A stretch of 64,000 nucleotides of DNA from Nitrosovibrio sp. Nv4 (GTDB lineage Bacteria > Pseudomonadota > Gammaproteobacteria > Burkholderiales > SG8-39): the NCBI GenBank assembly GCA_945906765.1, contig CAMDRF010000002.1, forward strand, positions 2,313-66,312, written 5' to 3'. Both the position numbers and the translations under genes were made by a program. Below the pieces are notes generated by a model. It was not told the DNA's origin. It did no database searches and saw only the letters and a program-made list of their open reading frames with translations. Numbering within the stretch: the first letter of the stretch is position 1; every line of letters starts with the position of its first letter. Shown here in pieces: positions 14,604 through 20,185 of the stretch.

Positions 14604-15845
14604 GTGCGTTACGAGCTCCTCGTCGGCCTGCGCTACACCCGCGCCAAGCGCCGCAACCACTTCATCAGTTTCATTTCGGCGATCTCGATGGCGGGCATCG
14701 CGCTGGGGGTCGCCGCGCTGATCGTGGTGCTCTCGGTGATGAACGGCTTCCAGAAGGAACTGCGCGCCCGCATCCTCGGCGTCGCCTCGCACGTGCAGAT
14801 CAGCGGCCCGGACAACCAGCTCGCCGACTGGCAGTCGGTGGCGAAAATCGTCATGCAGGACCCGCGCGTCAAGGGCGCGGCGCCGTTCGTCAATGCGCAG
14901 GGGATGCTCGCGGCGGGCCAGGCGGTGCGCGGCAGCGTGGTGCGCGGCATCATTCCGCAGCGCGAGGCGCAGGTGGCGGAGATCGGCCTGCACATGCGCG
15001 CAGGCTCGCTCGAGGCGCTCAAGGCCGGCGAGTTCGGCATCGTGCTTGGCTCGGAGCTGGCGCGCGCGCTTGGCGCGCTGAGCGGAGACAAAGTGGCGTT
15101 GATCGCGCCGCAGGGACTGGTGACGCCGGCCGGCGTGATCCCGCGCCTGAAGCAGTTCACCGTGGTCGGCCTGTTCGAGGTCGGCATGTTCGAATACGAC
15201 TCCGGCCTCGCGCTGGTGCACCTGGAAGACGCGCAGAAGCTCTACCAGATGGGCGACGCGGTGTCGGGGGTGCGCTTGAGGCTGGACGATCTGTTCGCCT
15301 CGCGCTCGGTGGCGCGTGACCTGATAGCGAAGCTGGATCCTTCCTATTTCGCCACCGACTGGACGCGCAGCCACGCCAATTTTTTCCGCGCGGTGGAGAT
15401 CGAGAAGCGCGTGATGTTCATCATCCTGCTGCTGATCGTCGCGGTGGCGGCGTTCAACATCGTCTCCACGCTGGTGATGCTGGTGACCGACAAGCAGGCC
15501 GACATCGCGATCCTGCGCACGCTGGGGGCCTCGCCGGGTTCGATCGTGCAGATCTTCATGGTGCAGGGCGCGCTGATCGGCGTCATCGGCACCTTCGCGG
15601 GCCTGGTGCTCGGCGTGCTGGTCGGCTTCAACGTCGATACCGTGGTGCCCTTCGTCGAGAACCTGCTCGGCTTCAAGTTCCTCGCCAAGGACATCTACTA
15701 CATCTCCGACCTGCCCTCGGACGTGCAGCTGGGCGATGTGACGACCATCGGCATCGTCTCGCTGGTGCTGTCCTTCATCGCCACTTTGTACCCGAGCTGG
15801 CGCGCTTCCCGCACCAACCCGGCGGAGGCGCTCAGATATGAGTGA
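14604..15845 (+). CDS. lolC: lipoprotein-releasing ABC transporter permease LolC/LolE
   Basis: GTG 14604 ([25 protein letters not shown]..), 413 aa. MacB-like FtsX topology, followed by lolD with an 8-nt overlap. Confidence 0.9.
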
Positions 15846-16515
15846 CGTGGTGTTGTCCTGCCGTGGATTGAAGAAGACCTACCAGGGCCCGGCGCCCGTG
15901 CACGTCCTGCTGAACGTTGACCTGGAAGTGCGCGCGGGCGAGCGCGTCGCGATCATGGGCCGCTCGGGCTCCGGAAAGTCGACGCTGCTGCATCTGTTGG
16001 GTGGATTGGATTTTGCGACGGAAGGGGTTGTCGTGGTGCAGGGCAGGGCCTTGAACGAAATGTCCGAAAAAGAAAGAGGTAACACCAGAAACCGGACCCT
16101 CGGGTTCGTCTACCAGTTTCATCACCTGCTGCCCGAATTCACCGCGGAGGAGAACGTCGCCATGCCGCTCTGGATCCGGCGCATGGACCGCGGCACGGCG
16201 CTCGCCAAAGCCAGAGCCGCCCTGAAAGAAGTGGGTTTGGCGGCGCGCGCCGCGCACCTGCCGGGAGAACTCTCGGGCGGCGAGCGCCAGCGCTGCGCCT
16301 TCGCGCGCGCCATGGTCACCGCGCCCGCCTGCGTGCTGGCTGACGAACCCACCGGCAACCTCGATACGCAGACCGCGGACGAAGTGTTCGAAGCGATGGT
16401 GCGCCTTTCCAACGCGCACGGCACCGCCTTCGTGCTGGTGACCCATGATGCCGCCCTGGCCGCGCGCACCGAGCGCGTGCTCGAATTGAAGGACGGCGCC
16501 CTGCATCCGGCCTGA
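15838..16515 (+). CDS. lolD: lipoprotein-releasing ABC transporter ATP-binding protein LolD
   Basis: 225 aa. Walker [10 protein letters not shown], the LolD signature region [26 protein letters not shown], and Walker [11 protein letters not shown]. Confidence 0.92.
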
Positions 16516-16593
16516 TGCTGGTGCGGCGACTGTAGTTCGGGTTCGCCGCGTACTACGATGGTTTTTGCAGGCATGGCGAACTGTGGAGGCATC

Positions 16594-16918
16594 ATGGATG
16601 CGATTTCGGTGGAACAGCTCATCAAGGAGTCCGGGCAAGCTGATCGAGGGCGCCGAAAACGGCCAGCTTGCGGTGGTCACCAAGGCGGGCCGCCCGCTGT
16701 TTCTCGCCGTGCCTTACGACGAGCGCCTGGCGGAGGAGGATGTGCACGTCGCCGTCGCGGTGCGTCTGTACGAGAGCGACGCCGTGAGCCTCGGCAAGGG
16801 CGCGAGAATCGCGGGGCTTTCGACGAGCGAATTCATCGACTGGCTCGGCGCGCTGCAGATTCCCGTCATTCGCTATTCCGCCGAGGAGCTCGAGCGGGAA
16901 CTCGCCGCGTTTGGCTGA
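16594..16918 (+). pseudogene. Phd/YefM-like plus UPF0175-like fused antitoxin, frameshifted near 16633
   Basis: ATG 16594 gives MDAISVEQLIKESG, then the frame must shift to continue KLIEGAENGQLAVVTKAGRPLFLAVPYDE (Phd pattern). Next comes ..LYESDAVSLGKGARIAGLSTSEFIDWLGALQIPV (UPF0175 pattern). The span is 325 nt, which is not a multiple of 3. An in-frame ATG at 16598 could still express an N-terminally scrambled product. Confidence 0.6.
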
Positions 16919-16955
16919 GATCGTCGTCGCGGACGCGGGGCCGCTGATTGCGTTC
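16911..16955 (+). pseudogene. 15-codon stub of a DUF3368-type PIN toxin
   Basis: TTG 16911 overlaps the antitoxin stop and encodes MAEIVVADAGPLIAF, the typical PIN/DUF3368 N-terminus. Similarity ends exactly where the CRISPR-like repeat begins. Confidence 0.5.
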
Positions 16956-16984
16956 GTGTTCCCCGCGTGCGCGGGGATGAACCA
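16956..16984 (+). repeat. solitary type I-E-like CRISPR repeat (no array)
   Basis: GTGTTCCCCGCGTGCGCGGGGATGAACCA is 29 nt. It has the same architecture as the recalled E. coli I-E repeat GAGTTCCCCGCGCCAGCGGGGATAAACCG: a CCCCGC/GCGGGG stem, a 4-nt loop and an AT(G/A)AACC tail. I saw no second copy in the window. Confidence 0.6.
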
Positions 16985-17123
16985 TCGGCCTGAACGGCGC
17001 GATCCTGGGCTACGTGATCTCGATCGAGCGGCGCCTGACGCGCCTTGAGACTTTCCAGGAGGTCCGGCGCGCGCCGCGCCAGGCGGCGGTACAATGATTC
17101 CCTTCGATCCGGTAGGGGGTTCG

Positions 17124-17282
17124 ATGAGCAAAGCACCGAAGCAAAAAGCGAGCGCGCGCCGCGGCGGCCGCGTGCACTACGTGACGATCCGCGGCAAGAA
17201 AATCAAGACCACGGCACGAGGGGCGCGTATGTTTCGCGCTGTCACGCGGGCGCTGAAGGGCGTAGACGTACCGCCGCCTTGA
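17124..17282 (+). CDS. small basic protein in the antitoxin position upstream of vapC (unclassified)
   Basis: ATG 17124 (MSKAPKQKASARRGGRVHYVTIRGKK..), 52 aa. Its stop overlaps the vapC TTG start as TTGA. No recognisable antitoxin fold. Confidence 0.4.
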   Translation: MSKAPKQKASARRGGRVHYVTIRGKKIKTTARGARMFRAVTRALKGVDVPPP

Positions 17283-17684
17283 TCTACCTCGTTGATGCAA
17301 ACGTCCTGGTGCACCTGGCCAACCGGGTGTCCGGGTCCGAGCGCATACTCGCCCGGTATGACGCGCAGCCGCGCGGCCGGGTGCGGCTTTCCGCCGCGAC
17401 GGCGCACGAGCTGCGCTTCATGATCCTGATGGCGAAGGCCTCCGCGAAGCACGTCGCGAGCCTCGACTCGATCGCGCGCGCGTATCCGGTCGAGCCCTTC
17501 GAGCTGGCCGCGGCCGCACGCCGCGGCCGACGTGCGGTATCAGCTCGAAATCGCCGGCAAACGGCTGGGCATCTTCGACATGCTGCTCGCGGGTCATGCG
17601 CGGTGCTTGGGCGCCACGGTGGTCAGCGATGATGCGGACTTTGACCGGGTGCCCGGCCTGAAAACCGAAAACTGGCTGCGCTGA
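17279..17684 (+). pseudogene. vapC: PIN-domain toxin VapC, frameshifted near 17520
   Basis: LIYLVDANVLVHL...SAATAHELRF...VEPFELAAAA is in one frame and ..ADVRYQLEIAGKRLGIFDMLLAGHARCLGATVVSDDADFDRVPGLKTENWLR* in another. The span is 406 nt (3n+1). All four PIN acidic positions are recognisable. Confidence 0.75.
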
Positions 17685-17712
17685 GCGCGGCCGCGGGGCA
17701 CGAACTCAGCGT

Positions 17713-17907
17713 TCACCGCTTGCCGTGGTTTGCGATCAGTGCGCGAATCTTCGCGAAGACTTCCTCGGCCGGGATGCCTTTGGTGTTTCCAGCCTCGAAG
17801 TCGGTGATGCGCCGGGAAATTTCCTCATCCCACGCCCGCGCGATTTCCTCCGGCGCGCCCTCCGGTTCGCCGTCGATGCTCTCGATCACCGTGCCAGCCA
17901 ACTGCAA
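17713..17907 (-). CDS. Unstab_antitox (TIGR02574-like) addiction-module antitoxin, N-terminally shortened, no toxin partner
   Basis: ..PEEIARAWDEEISRRITDFEAGNTKGIPAEEVFAKIRAL aligns with the C-terminal two thirds of the neighbouring paralog at 18027..18251. The N-terminal helix is missing and no toxin gene lies downstream. Confidence 0.55.
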   Translation of the reverse strand: MQLAGTVIESIDGEPEGAPEEIARAWDEEISRRITDFEAGNTKGIPAEEVFAKIRALIANHGKR

Positions 17908-17911
17908 TGTC

Positions 17912-18026
17912 GCTTCGCCCAGTAATCCGGTCGCCGGCTAGGGTGAGCGAGCGCAAGAACGTCAAGTACATCGCCGCGGACGCGATAAATCGGCGTGTAC
18001 GGAAATCGCTTGAATACGAAACCGCT
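17912..18026 (-). pseudogene. C-terminal fragment of a RelE/ParE-family toxin
   Basis: Directly after the antitoxin stop the same frame reads SGFVFKRFPYTPIYRVRGDVLDVLALAHPSRRPDYWAKR, the conserved RelE/ParE C-terminus. The N-terminal half is missing. Confidence 0.6.
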
Positions 18027-18251
18027 TCAACGCAGCTTGGCGCGCAGCCCCGCCATAAGCTGTTCGGAAGGAATGGTTTCGACCTCTCCGCTGTCGATCT
18101 GCGCGATGCGGCGTTCGATCTCGGCGTCCCAGGCGGCCGCCACCTCTTCAGGCGTGTCGACGCTTATCCAGAGCTTGTCGGCGAGATCGGCGCGTTCCTC
18201 CGCGGAGAGCCGCATCGCTTCGGCGGCAATTTGTTCGTAGGTGAGTGACAT
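18027..18251 (-). CDS. Unstab_antitox (TIGR02574-like) addiction-module antitoxin
   Basis: ATG 18251 (MSLTYEQIAAEAMRLSAEERADLADKLWISVDTPEEVAAAWDAEIERRIAQIDSGE..), 74 aa. Confidence 0.75.
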   Translation of the reverse strand: MSLTYEQIAAEAMRLSAEERADLADKLWISVDTPEEVAAAWDAEIERRIAQIDSGEVETIPSEQLMAGLRAKLR

Positions 18252-18370
18252 AACCGCTCCTTGAGGCGAAAGCTTGCCCGGAATTCTATTCCGGATTGGA
18301 AGGAATTTCAGCCTATGCCAGAACCCAGCGGCGAGTCGAGAGACCCGATGCCGATTTCCGCCCTTTCGCA

Positions 18371-20185
18371 CTAGACGGGCTTGTCCGCGGCGTTGCCGGC
18401 CTTCGCGTTGAGCGCCGCCTCGTCCTCGCGCAAGGTCCGGGCGAACTGGTCGCGCAGTTCGTTGGATACGGAGACGTTGGCGTCCGGGCCGCTTTTGTGC
18501 ACGCTGTACAGCTTGGCCAGCACCACGTCGTCATGTTCGGCGAAGCTCTGTATCGCGCGCGCCGCGCGCTCGGCATCGGCGCCCACGGCCGCCAAGGTCG
18601 CCCGGCCCAGCGCCAGCGCCGACTGGAAGGTCTCGCGCTCGATGATCTCGACGCCGATGTCGCGCAACTCGAACAGGTGGCGCATGTCGTGCGCCCGCGC
18701 GATGATCCTGAGTTTCGGGAAATTTTTGGCCGCCGTCCTCGCCAGACCCGTGGTCGCTACCGGGTCATTCAGCGTGATGATGAGAAAGTCGGCCTGCGCG
18801 GCGCCCGCTGCCTGCAGCAGGTCGAGCCGCGTGGCGTCGCCGTAGAACACGCGAAAGCCGAAGCGCCGTGACTGCTCGACGTGGTCGGGATCGTCGTCGA
18901 GGATGGTCGGCTCGTAGCCGCTGCCATGCAGCAGGCGCGCGACCACCTGGCCGACGCGCCCGAGTCCGGCGACGATGACCTTGCTCGGTTCGGGCGGCAG
19001 GTGCGTACGCTCCGGCGCCTTGCCGGTGAAGCGCGGCGCCAGCACGCGGTCGTGGAATACCAGCAGGAAGGGTGTCGAGAGCATGGACAGCGCCACCGCC
19101 AGCGTCATTGCCTGCGCGGTCGCCAAGGGCAGCACCTCGCGCTGCACGCCGAGCGTCAGCAGCACGAACGCGAACTCGCCGCCCTGCGCGAGCAGCAGGA
19201 TGAACAGCGGCCGCTCGCTCGGCGGCAGCTTCGCGAAACGCGCGATCGCCCAGAGCACCGCGCTCTTGAGGACGAACAGGCCGACGATCAGGCCGGCGAT
19301 GAGCAGCGGCCTGTCGAGCAACAGCCCGAAATCGACGCTCATGCCGACCGCGATGAAGAACAGGCCAAGCAGCAGGCCCTTGAAGGGCTCCACCGCCGCC
19401 TCGATTTCGTGACGGTACTCGGATTCGGCGAGCAGCACGCCGGCGAGAAACGTACCAAGCGCCATCGACAGGCCCGCGGACTCGAAGCCCCAGGCGATTC
19501 CCAGCACCAGCAGCAGCGCAAAGGCGGTGAAAATCTCGCGTTGCCGGGTGCGCGCGATGTGGCGGAATACCGGCTGGGCGAGGAAGTGTCCGCCGACGAG
19601 CGTGGCGGCGATCACGGCGCCGGCAAACCCCAGGCCGCCCCAGGAAAAGCTCGCGCCGGCGCCGGCCGCCCCCAGCAACGGCAGCAGCGCCAGCATCGGG
19701 ATCACGGCGATGTCCTGGAACAGCAGGATGGCGAATACCGCCTGGCCGCCCTTGTTTTGCAGTGCCCCGCGCTCCCTGAGCGGCTGCAATGCCAGCGCGG
19801 TCGAGGACAGGGCGAGCGCCATTCCGGCAACGATACCCAAGCGCAGGTCGATGCCCGCGGCCCAGGCCACCGCGGCGATCAGCGCGATTGAGCCCGCGAC
19901 CTGCGATACGCCCAGCGACAGCAGCCGGGCACGCATGCTCCAGAGGCGCTTGGGCTCCAGCTCCAGGCCGATGACGAAGAGCAGGAACACCACGCCCAGT
20001 TCGGCGATGTGGCGCACGTCCTCGACTTTTTCGACCAGCTTCAAGCCGAAGGGGCCGATGGCGATGCCGGCGAGCAGGTAGCCCGCCACCGAGCCCAGTC
20101 CCAGGCGGTGCGAAAACACCACCGCGAGCACCGCCGAGGCGAGAAACACCACGCTCTGGATCAGGTAGCCGCTGACGTGCTCCAT
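18371..20185 (-). CDS. CPA2-family monovalent cation:proton antiporter, KefB/KefC-like, with C-terminal RCK/TrkA-N domain
   Basis: ORF trimmed to ATG 20185 (MEHVSGYLIQSVVFLAS..), 604 aa. About 12 TM segments, then VIVAGLGRVGQVVARLL (Rossmann/RCK). Confidence 0.85.
   Translation of the reverse strand: MEHVSGYLIQSVVFLASAVLAVVFSHRLGLGSVAGYLLAGIAIGPFGLKLVEKVEDVRHIAELGVVFLLFVIGLELEPKRLWSMRARLLSLGVSQVAGSIALIAAVAWAAGIDLRLGIVAGMALALSSTALALQPLRERGALQNKGGQAVFAILLFQDIAVIPMLALLPLLGAAGAGASFSWGGLGFAGAVIAATLVGGHFLAQPVFRHIARTRQREIFTAFALLLVLGIAWGFESAGLSMALGTFLAGVLLAESEYRHEIEAAVEPFKGLLLGLFFIAVGMSVDFGLLLDRPLLIAGLIVGLFVLKSAVLWAIARFAKLPPSERPLFILLLAQGGEFAFVLLTLGVQREVLPLATAQAMTLAVALSMLSTPFLLVFHDRVLAPRFTGKAPERTHLPPEPSKVIVAGLGRVGQVVARLLHGSGYEPTILDDDPDHVEQSRRFGFRVFYGDATRLDLLQAAGAAQADFLIITLNDPVATTGLARTAAKNFPKLRIIARAHDMRHLFELRDIGVEIIERETFQSALALGRATLAAVGADAERAARAIQSFAEHDDVVLAKLYSVHKSGPDANVSVSNELRDQFARTLREDEAALNAKAGNAADKPV

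What the first reader, a model, noticed from the sequence alone, without database searches (positions are those of the whole stretch)
16594..18251. Toxin-antitoxin graveyard: five modules, no intact toxin
Between lolD and the kefC-like gene I read five modules. (a) A Phd-UPF0175 fused antitoxin with a 1-nt frameshift, followed by only 15 codons of its DUF3368 PIN toxin. (b) A small basic ORF followed by a VapC that has all catalytic acidic residues but a +1 frameshift in a GC run near 17520. (c) An intact Unstab_antitox antitoxin followed in the same frame by only the C-terminal 38 or so residues of a RelE/ParE toxin. (d) A second, N-terminally shortened Unstab_antitox antitoxin with no toxin at all. 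Toxins are systematically lost while antitoxin reading frames are retained. This is the pattern expected for anti-addiction or decaying addiction modules, and it marks a former mobile-element hotspot.
Basis: partly seen in the sequence, partly recalled or inferred. Interest (0 to 1): 0.55.

Follow-up and report, generated by a model that had tools for sequence, protein, structure and literature searches.

The report
Decayed toxin-antitoxin and CRISPR-Cas relic island
A 1.86-kb stretch between two housekeeping genes of an uncultured soil Burkholderiales bacterium is the eroded remnant of a defence island (four toxin-antitoxin pairs, a cas4 stub and one lone CRISPR repeat) in which every toxin is dead while most antitoxins survive; it is an instructive example of an ordinary kind of decay.

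Summary
Between lolD (stop at 16515) and a kefC-like gene (stop at 18371) lie four type II TA modules with no intact toxin. Homologues confirm each lesion: a +1 A in the 107-aa UPF0175 antitoxin, a 15-codon DUF3368 stub, a +1 C in a 134-aa VapC, a 38-residue ParE tail and an Unstab_antitox lacking about 20 N-terminal residues. Seven assemblies (99.8-100% identical, no gaps) reproduce both frameshifts, so they are not one-off assembly errors. There are four modules, not five.

A perfect solitary type I-E CRISPR repeat (16956-16983) sits exactly where the DUF3368 gene breaks off. A truncated small membrane-protein gene lies at 16984-17097. A 19-codon cas4 stub (18315-18371) abuts kefC.

Intact relatives of modules c and d sit between cas7 and cas4 of type I-C operons. 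Two related mosaics, one also beside kefC, and a cas4::antitoxin chimera carry other decay states.

Best reading: deletional erosion of a CRISPR-Cas/TA defence island. Toxins die first because the reverse order is lethal. Anti-addiction is possible but untested. Moderate interest.

The parts
15838..16515 (+). lolD (ABC ATPase), left flank of the island
   Evidence: 225-aa ORF. 82% identical to LolD of the closest GTDB MAG, L001. ABC_tran hit on the same gene in L084.
16543..16593 (+). Upstream region of module a, with GGAGG at 16585-16589
   Evidence: DNA homology to the intact loci L088/L090 (95%) starts at 16543.
16594..16918 (+). Antitoxin a, UPF0175 family with a weak Phd-like N-terminus. 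It is frameshifted by a +1 A at 16624/16625. An alternative ATG at 16598 is in the downstream frame and gives a 106-aa ORF.
   Evidence: Pfam PF03683, 1.9e-15, on the repaired product. 107-aa homologues up to 93% identical. Indel shown in alignment A1. dN/dS 0.15 against L088 and L093.
16911..16955 (+). Stub of the DUF3368 (PIN-like) toxin: TTG start plus 14 codons
   Evidence: 15/15 identical to the N-terminus of 163-aa PF11848 proteins downstream of the intact antitoxins. Homology ends at 16956.
16956..16983 (+). Solitary, perfect type I-E CRISPR repeat GTGTTCCCCGCGTGCGCGGGGATGAACC, at the junction of modules a and b
   Evidence: Single copy in the window even with 3 mismatches allowed. The identical 28-mer is the repeat of many arrays with 61-nt period in metagenomes, for example 90 copies in L164. 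It folds into a 7-bp stem and 4-nt loop. Copies with 1-3 mismatches lie in the related mosaics L178 (two) and L181 (one).
16984..17097 (+). X: C-terminal 37 codons plus stop of a small single-helix membrane protein, lacking its start and first 12 codons. TACAAT at 17090-17095 reads as a -10 box by eye.
   Evidence: phmmer hits to 48-56-aa proteins, matching residues 13-49 of P0165 at 78% identity, E 2.6e-9. The same truncated segment lies next to a repeat in L178 at 87% identity.
17121..17282 (+). Antitoxin b: 52-aa basic protein, intact, no Pfam or NCBIfam family
   Evidence: 52-53-aa homologues sit directly upstream of, and overlap by 4 nt, the intact VapC genes in L095 and L096. No family hit.
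17279..17684 (+). VapC (PIN) toxin pseudogene, with a +1 C at about 17514-17515 inside GCGGCCGC
   Evidence: PIN, 1.1e-14, on the repaired product. 134-aa homologues at up to 74% identity and 100% coverage. Acidic residues invariant. Single-base indel in alignment A3.
17713..17907 (-). Antitoxin d: Unstab_antitox lacking about 20 N-terminal residues, its promoter and any toxin
   Evidence: PF09720, 1.1e-9, matching HMM positions 9-54. TIGR02574 positions 12-64. Homologues are 84 aa at up to 89% identity. dN/dS 0.51 against L178, from 8 differences.
17911..18026 (-). ParE/RelE toxin remnant: the C-terminal 38 residues only
   Evidence: 82-89% identical to residues about 59-96 of the 97-aa PF05016 proteins P0157, P0158 and P0161. 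160 nt deleted relative to L177 between TTCGT repeats, and start ATG changed to AAG. 5 of 6 differences are nonsynonymous.
18027..18251 (-). Antitoxin c: Unstab_antitox, 74 aa, intact
   Evidence: PF09720, 4e-14. TIGR02574, 5e-13. 68/74 identical to the antitoxin of the intact pair in L177. dN/dS 0.18.
18283..18311 (-). Promoter-like site for antitoxin c (CTGAAA-17-TAGAAT), overlapping the palindrome CCGGAATTCTATTCCGG
   Evidence: The only sigma-70-like hit in the island; shuffles give a mean of 0.2. The segment is conserved in L177 and L182.
18315..18374 (+). cas4 stub: 19 codons (MPEPSGESRDPMPISALSH) plus TAG, divergent from antitoxin c and overlapping the kefC stop
   Evidence: 8/10 identical to the Cas4 N-terminus of the type I-C locus L179, E 1e-4. 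89-91% DNA identity to L177 and L182. In L182 the ORF continues as Cas4 for 46 residues.
18371..20185 (-). kefC-like K+/H+ antiporter, right flank of the island
   Evidence: 604-aa gene with Na_H_Exchanger, TrkA_N and KefB_C hits in the identical contigs L081 and L082. 76% identical to the gene next to lolD in L001.

Best explanation
The island (16516-18374) is a non-functional, deletion-compacted remnant of a defence island acquired between lolD and kefC. That island combined CRISPR-Cas components with several type II toxin-antitoxin modules. The CRISPR-Cas components included a type I-C-like cas operon carrying an Unstab_antitox-ParE pair next to cas4, and DNA carrying type I-E repeats.

Decay proceeded by small indels and microhomology-mediated deletions. 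It was bounded on both sides by selection on lolD and kefC.

A cell that loses an antitoxin while its toxin is still active dies. Only lineages that inactivated the toxin first, or lost both together, survive. What remains is therefore biased towards dead toxins plus antitoxins. Antitoxins b and c keep intact ORFs and promoter-like upstream sequences, and are probably still made as small autoregulated proteins. Antitoxin a may be made from the alternative ATG. Antitoxin d looks dead.

Shown: the lesions, their reproducibility across assemblies, the homologies, and the cas-embedded context of relatives. Inferred: the ancestral architecture, the order of events, and present-day expression.
For: All four toxins carry different inactivating lesions, verified against intact homologues. 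The lesions recur in 4-7 other assemblies with zero gaps.

The closest relative has lolD and kefC 26 nt apart with no island. None of 80 related lolD loci has related TA genes.

The cas4 stub is divergent from antitoxin c, exactly as in intact loci. In the five relatives with sequence on the toxin side (L177, L179, L180, L185, L186), the Unstab_antitox-ParE pair lies against cas7 of a type I-C operon. In four of them cas4 is seen on the other side; L177 starts 103 nt upstream of the antitoxin. L185 shows fragmented cas genes with the TA pair still intact.

Two related mosaics and a chimera show other decay states of the same modules. L178 lies at the kefC stop and has an intact 84-aa d-type antitoxin, a mostly deleted VapC, a solitary I-C repeat, a cas4 stub and two I-E repeats. 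L181, whose flanks are unknown, has an intact c-type pair followed by a toxin-less d-type antitoxin. L182 is a cas4::antitoxin-a chimera with a decayed DUF3368.

The repeat is identical to array repeats and marks the exact breakpoint of the DUF3368 gene. dN/dS is 0.15-0.18 for antitoxins a and c but 1.65 for the ParE remnant.
Against: No cas gene or array is present in the 64-kb window. The CRISPR-Cas ancestry therefore rests on 57 nt of cas4, one repeat, and context in relatives.

L182's gene order (c, cas4, a) is a circular permutation of the window's order. It cannot be derived from the window by simple deletion.

The I-E repeat lies in opposite orientation relative to X in the window and in L178. 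I cannot explain this.

The relatives were chosen from top hits with long contigs, not sampled at random. dN/dS values rest on 6-40 differences and mix time spent before and after toxin loss. The full-length orphan d-type antitoxins of L178 and L181 still show dN/dS 0.19. That would also fit continued selection.
Confidence: 0.7

Rival explanations
1. Selected anti-addiction or toxin-immunity set. The orphan antitoxins a, b and c are kept by selection because they neutralise homologous DUF3368, VapC and ParE toxins. Those toxins arrive on plasmids, phages or cas-linked TA cassettes circulating in the same community. This reading is compatible with decay as the origin of the island.
For: Antitoxins b and c are intact and keep upstream promoter-like sequence. 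Antitoxin a keeps 96 of 107 codons readable from a well-spaced alternative ATG. dN/dS is 0.15-0.19 for antitoxins, including the orphan-to-orphan comparison L178 against L181. Close homologues of all three toxin families are abundant in related metagenomes. Surveys report abundant orphan antitoxins and propose this role (PMC7192599).
Against: There is no functional test. The same pattern follows from viability alone. Antitoxin d is truncated and shows relaxed constraint (0.51). Antitoxin a carries a frameshift. Low dN/dS may simply reflect time spent as a functional pair before a recent toxin loss.
Confidence: 0.2
2. The solitary type I-E repeat is functional. It could be a Racr-like decoy RNA that titrates Cas6e/Cascade. 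It could instead be a CreA/crRNA-like regulator transcribed from the antitoxin-a promoter.
For: The repeat is perfect and forms the canonical hairpin. It lies 37 nt downstream of the antitoxin-a stop on the same strand. In L178 a repeat likewise lies 1 nt after a toxin-less UPF0175 gene. Solitary repeats can act as RNA anti-CRISPRs, including type I-E ones (PMC10651486).
Against: It sits in a chromosomal relic, not in a virus or plasmid, and viral contigs hold no copy. No seed-matched target with a PAM was found for the adjacent 32 nt in the window. Functional ectopic repeats are typically degenerate (PMC9458426), whereas this one is identical to array repeats, as expected of a recent array remnant. 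Other solitary copies in metagenomes sit behind leader-like sequence or abut truncated genes. No cas genes lie nearby.
Confidence: 0.07
3. Assembly or sequencing artefact: the two frameshifts are errors and full-length antitoxin a and VapC are really encoded.
For: Both indels lie in GC-rich sequence, and the VapC one lies inside a GCGGCCGC palindrome. All data are short-read metagenome assemblies.
Against: Seven assemblies from several runs and an NCBI MAG agree base for base, with no gaps, across both sites. Repairing the frameshifts would still leave the DUF3368, ParE and d-type lesions, which are deletions of 100 nt or more.
Confidence: 0.02

Closest known systems
Degraded chromosomal type II TA loci and orphan antitoxins (for example the Klebsiella pneumoniae survey, PMC7192599)
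   Same: [quoted passage not shown] Degradation and anti-addiction are the standard explanations.
   Different: Here four different modules are packed into 1.86 kb. Every lesion is mapped against intact relatives. The cluster is tied to CRISPR-Cas remnants.
Anti-addiction modules (chromosomal antitoxins neutralising plasmid toxins; concept reviewed in PMC7354431)
   Same: Chromosomal antitoxin genes have close homologues paired with active toxins elsewhere in the community.
   Different: No cross-neutralisation has been shown. One antitoxin is truncated and another is frameshifted.
CreTA, the CRISPR-regulated RNA toxin-antitoxins that make cells addicted to cas genes (PMC9458426, PMC10097628)
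   Same: An addiction module is physically embedded in a cas locus, with ectopic CRISPR repeats outside arrays.
   Different: The modules here are protein type II pairs (Unstab_antitox-ParE). They are not repressed through a crRNA-like RNA, and no psi-spacer target was found. The repeat is not degenerate.
Solitary repeat units and RNA anti-CRISPRs (Racrs; PMC10651486)
   Same: A single full-length CRISPR repeat is not associated with other repeats or with cas genes.
   Different: Racrs are encoded on viruses and plasmids, usually just downstream of a promoter. This repeat lies at a deletion breakpoint in a chromosomal relic.
VapBC, ParDE/RelBE-type and UPF0175-DUF3368 (COG2886-COG2405) type II TA families
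   Same: Domain content, antitoxin-then-toxin order and overlapping stop/start codons all match.
   Different: No toxin is intact. The 52-aa antitoxin of the VapC module belongs to no described family.

Membership tests
UPF0175 antitoxin (PF03683) | Profile match above the gathering score | tested here: met
   56.7 bits against 27.9, on the repaired 107-aa product.
UPF0175 antitoxin (PF03683) | Uninterrupted ORF from the ancestral start | tested here: not met
   +1 A at 16624/16625. A 106-aa ORF from ATG 16598 remains.
Phd/YefM antitoxin (PF02604, TIGR01552) | Profile match above the curated cut-off in the N-terminal part | tested here: not met
   13.1 bits against 29.8 and 12.8 against 20.8. 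Some homologues carry precomputed PF02604 or PF24001 hits, and PGAP names a distant plasmid homologue a Phd family antitoxin. A Phd-like fold is plausible but not shown.
DUF3368 PIN-like toxin (PF11848) | Full-length domain downstream of the antitoxin | tested here: not met
   Only 15 codons remain. They are identical to the N-terminus of 163-aa PF11848 proteins.
VapC / PIN (PF01850) | Profile match and four conserved acidic residues | tested here: met
   55.5 bits against 23.6. D6, E44, D100 and D117 are invariant in alignment A2.
VapC / PIN (PF01850) | Intact reading frame | tested here: not met
   +1 C at about 17514-17515. The frameshifted product would lack D100 and D117.
Unstab_antitox (PF09720 / TIGR02574) | Profile match above the cut-off | tested here: met
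   Module c: 52.8 and 48.8 bits. Module d: 38.7 and 34.6 bits. Module d covers only HMM positions 9-54 and lacks 20 residues relative to the 84-aa homologues.
ParE/RelE toxin (PF05016) | Full-length toxin of about 97 aa downstream of the antitoxin | tested here: not met
   Only 38 C-terminal residues remain, 82-89% identical to PF05016 proteins. There is no profile hit on the fragment alone.
Type I-E CRISPR array | Repeat sequence and hairpin of I-E type | tested here: met
   The exact 28-mer is the repeat of arrays with 61-nt period. It folds into a 7-bp stem and 4-nt loop. The I-E assignment rests on the period and on my own knowledge of I-E repeat consensus sequences.
Type I-E CRISPR array | Two or more repeats separated by spacers, with a leader and cas genes nearby | tested here: not met
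   There is one copy in 64 kb with 3 mismatches allowed. No cas domains were found in 30 window ORFs scanned here or in the genes already annotated on the identical contigs. Some gaps in the window were left unscanned.
Cas4 (PF01930) | Homology to the Cas4 N-terminus in the position divergent from the antitoxin | tested here: met
   DPMPISALSH against DPIPISALQH, E 1e-4. The same DNA continues as Cas4 in L182. Only 19 codons remain, so it is a stub and not a gene.
Racr / solitary repeat unit | Solitary repeat on a virus or plasmid, downstream of a promoter, in a host with the matching subtype | tested here: inconclusive
   Solitary: yes. On a virus or plasmid: no. Host cas content cannot be determined from the window.
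CreTA-like CRISPR-regulated module | psi-spacer partially matching a toxin promoter, next to cas genes | tested here: not met
   No seed-matched target in the window, and no cas operon.
Anti-addiction module | A chromosomal antitoxin neutralises a homologous incoming toxin | not testable with these tools
   This needs co-expression assays.

The most novel reading that the evidence does not exclude
The island is a fossil of how a toxin-antitoxin-guarded CRISPR-Cas locus is lost. In this lineage of Burkholderiales, Unstab_antitox-ParE pairs inserted between cas7 and cas4 act as addiction modules for type I-C operons. Cells escape by first killing the toxin. Deletions can then strip the cas genes, leaving an antitoxin plus a cas4 stub. 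CRISPR repeats, both I-E and I-C, serve as recurrent recombination or deletion breakpoints that shuffle TA cassettes among such islands.
Probability: 0.3. Interest if true: 0.6.

Novelty: new member of a known kind. Interest (0 to 1): 0.4.

Why it matters
Degraded TA loci and orphan antitoxins are common, so the island itself is not surprising. Its value is as a well-resolved natural series. The same modules are seen in four states:
- intact inside type I-C cas operons
- intact beside fragmented cas genes
- as mosaics with solitary repeats
- almost fully eroded, as in this window

That series gives concrete, testable material for two questions. The first is whether protein TA pairs embedded in cas operons stabilise CRISPR-Cas, and how cells escape that addiction. 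The second is whether CRISPR repeats act as breakpoints in defence-island rearrangement. It also flags an undescribed 52-54-aa antitoxin family for a VapC clade.

Tried and rejected
- Profile searches on the short fragments (DUF3368 stub, ParE tail, X, the 52-aa antitoxin) gave nothing in Pfam, NCBIfam or PDB sequences. Identity was established through homologues and their neighbours instead.
- Rfam gave no CRISPR-DR or other credible hit in the island.
- The repeat is absent from viral contigs. The island has no phage match and only one distant plasmid match.
- I tested a CreA-like role by scanning for seed matches to the 32 nt after the repeat. No plausible target was found.
- I looked for a type I-C repeat in the window and found none.
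- I looked for flanking direct repeats or att-like sites around the island. Only chance-level short repeats appeared.
- GC content shows no anomaly.
- I considered programmed frameshifting for VapC and antitoxin a. I rejected it because homologues have a single frame and the indels are simple 1-nt insertions.
- I considered X to be non-coding promoter DNA. I rejected that after the phmmer hits to 48-56-aa proteins.
- I could not explain the flipped orientation of the repeat relative to X between the window and L178.
Full report
**Context**

The window is ordinary chromosome from an uncultured high-GC betaproteobacterium. The closest GTDB genome is a Burkholderiales MAG with LolD 82% identical. 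Genes found by Pfam across the window are metabolic or housekeeping: SpoT/RelA, ThrRS, TRAP and TctC transporters, aconitase, ComEC, plus tRNA-Val. No cas, integrase or transposase domains appeared among them, although some gaps were not scanned.

The finding lies between lolD (15838-16515, +) and a 604-aa kefC-like gene (18371-20185, -). In the closest relative, L001, these two genes are convergent and 26 nt apart. The next relative, L002, also has no insert. None of the 80 related lolD loci carries homologues of any island protein within 10 kb. The 1.86-kb segment 16516-18374 is therefore a lineage-specific insertion. Its GC content is not unusual.

**Are the lesions real?**

Seven contigs from other assemblies carry this locus: five Logan run assemblies, one ENA assembly and one NCBI MAG. 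They are 99.8-100% identical to the window with zero gaps. Four of them cover the first frameshift site and all seven cover the second. One-off assembly error is therefore excluded. Read-level confirmation is still desirable.

**Module a (16543-16955, +)**

With one base removed, the product is 107 aa. It hits UPF0175 at 56.7 bits, and Phd/YefM only below threshold. It matches a well-populated family of 107-aa proteins at up to 93% identity over full length.

In intact loci this antitoxin is followed, with an 8-nt overlap, by a 163-172-aa DUF3368 protein. Alignment to L088, L090 and L093 shows a single extra A at 16624/16625.

The second ATG at 16598 lies 8 nt from GGAGG and is in the downstream frame. 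A 106-aa protein with only its first 10 residues replaced could therefore still be made. This is inference.

The toxin is reduced to TTG plus 14 codons, 15/15 identical to the intact toxins. Homology to every intact locus stops at 16956.

**The junction (16956-16983)**

Base 16956 is the first base of GTGTTCCCCGCGTGCGCGGGGATGAACC. This 28-mer occurs once in the window. It is the exact repeat of many metagenomic arrays with a 61-nt period, up to 90 copies per contig. It folds into a 7-bp stem and 4-nt loop.

By my own knowledge of repeat consensus sequences, this is a type I-E repeat.

**Segment X (16984-17097)**

Directly after the repeat come 37 codons plus a stop. They match residues 13-49 of a family of 48-56-aa proteins with one N-terminal hydrophobic helix (E 2.6e-9). 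X has therefore lost its start and half of that helix. It belongs to no Pfam family.

**Module b (17121-17684, +)**

The 52-aa basic ORF has 52-53-aa homologues in the same position, with a 4-nt overlap, upstream of intact 134-aa VapC genes in L095 and L096. It has no family assignment.

The repaired VapC is 134 aa, like its homologues, at up to 74% identity and 100% coverage. It hits PIN at 55.5 bits, and D6, E44, D100 and D117 are invariant.

A three-way DNA alignment shows one extra C at about 17514-17515 within GCGGCCGC. The frameshifted product would lack two of the four acidic residues.

**Modules c and d (17713-18251, -)**

The 74-aa Unstab_antitox (c) is intact. After its stop come 38 residues that are 82-89% identical to the C-termini of 97-aa ParE_toxin proteins.

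Compared with the intact pair in L177, 160 nt have been deleted between two TTCGT copies. The toxin start codon is also changed from ATG to AAG.

The ParE tail runs straight into the 64-aa Unstab_antitox (d). Homologues of d are 84 aa long at up to 89% identity, so d lacks about 20 residues and its promoter. No toxin follows it.

L181 shows a likely precursor order: a c-type antitoxin, an intact ParE, then a full-length d-type antitoxin without a toxin.

The title's 'five' is not supported.

**The cas4 stub (18315-18374, +)**

Upstream of antitoxin c lies the only sigma-70-like site in the island, overlapping a palindrome. Beyond it, on the + strand, is MPEPSGESRDPMPISALSH followed by a stop. 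This is the N-terminus of Cas4. It is 8/10 identical to Cas4 of the type I-C locus L179. The same DNA in L182 continues as Cas4 for 46 residues. The stub ends on the kefC stop codon.

**Context of intact relatives**

In the five relatives with sequence on the toxin side (L177, L179, L180, L185, L186), the Unstab_antitox-ParE pair lies against cas7 of a type I-C operon. In four of them cas4 is seen on the other side. L177 begins 103 nt upstream of the antitoxin, so its cas4 side is not seen. L179 also has the adjacent 37-nt-repeat array. In L185 csd1 and cas3 are fragmented while the TA pair is intact.

- **L178** lies at the stop codon of a kefC that is 82% identical to the window's. It carries another mosaic of the same parts:
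  - an intact 84-aa d-type antitoxin and a mostly deleted VapC next to the b antitoxin
  - a cas4 stub and a solitary I-C repeat identical to the L179 array repeat
  - a toxin-less UPF0175 gene ending 1 nt from an I-E repeat
  - a second I-E repeat abutting the same truncated X, which there precedes a different and intact PIN pair
- **L181**, whose flanks are unknown, has one I-E repeat between its d-type antitoxin and a PIN gene.
- **L182** is a chimera of cas4(1-46) fused to antitoxin a(38-107), followed by a decayed DUF3368. JGI annotated it as Cas4.

**Interpretation**

The simplest account is deletional erosion of a defence island that combined CRISPR-Cas and TA modules. Erosion was stopped on both sides by selection on lolD and kefC. 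The toxin-first pattern follows from viability, because losing an antitoxin before its toxin kills the cell.

Substitution patterns agree, but the counts are small. dN/dS is 0.15-0.18 for antitoxins a and c. Five of six changes in the ParE tail are nonsynonymous. The truncated d gives 0.51.

The full-length orphan d-type antitoxins of L178 and L181 still show dN/dS 0.19. Continued selection on antitoxins, that is anti-addiction or toxin immunity, therefore cannot be dismissed. Published surveys find orphan antitoxins abundant and offer the same two explanations (PMC7192599).

**The repeat**

I rate a functional role as unlikely. Racr-type solitary repeats are carried on viruses and plasmids (PMC10651486). 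Regulatory ectopic repeats are typically degenerate (PMC9458426). No target for the adjacent sequence was found. Other solitary copies in metagenomes sit behind leader-like sequence or abut truncated genes. A recent array remnant used as a deletion or recombination endpoint fits best.

Two things remain unexplained. The repeat has opposite orientation relative to X in the window and in L178. The gene order in L182 is a circular permutation of the window's order.

**Verdict**

The island is a new, well-documented member of a known kind. Interest is moderate, mainly for what it shows about the link between TA modules and CRISPR-Cas loss.

Noticed in passing
L177:104-621; L179:4000-4544; L180:2247-2791; L185:8001-8545; L186:2222-2766: An Unstab_antitox-ParE pair lies against cas7 of a type I-C operon, on the opposite strand. 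cas4 is seen on the other side in L179, L180, L185 and L186. L177 starts 103 nt upstream of the antitoxin. I found no paper describing this specific association.
   Followed up: partly
L185:8559-14202: In this 188-kb contig csd1 is split into three ORFs and cas3 into two, while the embedded TA pair is intact. This looks like an intermediate stage of cas operon decay.
   Followed up: no
L178:1-3132: A mosaic at the kefC stop codon of a related organism. It has two direct type I-E repeats (535-562, 1395-1422) flanking a truncated X plus an intact PIN pair. It also has one solitary type I-C repeat (2338-2375), a cas4 stub and an intact 84-aa d-type antitoxin. The I-E repeat next to X is inverted relative to the window.
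   Followed up: partly
L182:256-606: A chimeric ORF of Cas4 residues 1-46 fused to antitoxin a residues 38-107, annotated by JGI as Cas4. Its gene order (c, cas4, a) is a circular permutation of the window's island.
   Followed up: partly
window 16984-17097; P0165-P0172: A family of 48-56-aa proteins with one hydrophobic helix and a conserved SIERRLTRLE motif. It has no Pfam family and sits upstream of different PIN-type TA pairs. It could be a small membrane toxin or a regulator.
   Followed up: partly
window 17121-17282; L095:991-1152; L096:3846-4004: A 52-53-aa, highly basic partner of a VapC clade with no Pfam or NCBIfam model. It is probably an undescribed VapB-type antitoxin family.
   Followed up: partly
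L140:1738-1765; L153:310-337; L145; L151: Other truly solitary copies of the same I-E repeat in metagenomes. By eye, two directly abut truncated coding sequence (a HEMAHL metalloprotease-like ORF and an IS200/RAYT-like N-terminus). One (L151) follows leader-like sequence.
   Followed up: partly
window 16281-16356 and 17550-17566: Strain variants show clustered SNPs: 5 within 76 nt of the lolD 3' end in L084, and 3 within 17 nt of VapC in L081. Several contigs also break at 16342, 16357, 17163, 17232 and 17392. This suggests co-existing haplotypes or paralogous TA copies in the source communities.
   Followed up: no
L091:1590-2088; L183:853-1188: DUF3368 toxins next to a-type antitoxins are also split or shortened in other contigs (102 + 56 aa in L091; 111 aa after a 130-nt gap in L183). 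Toxin decay appears frequent in this family.
   Followed up: no
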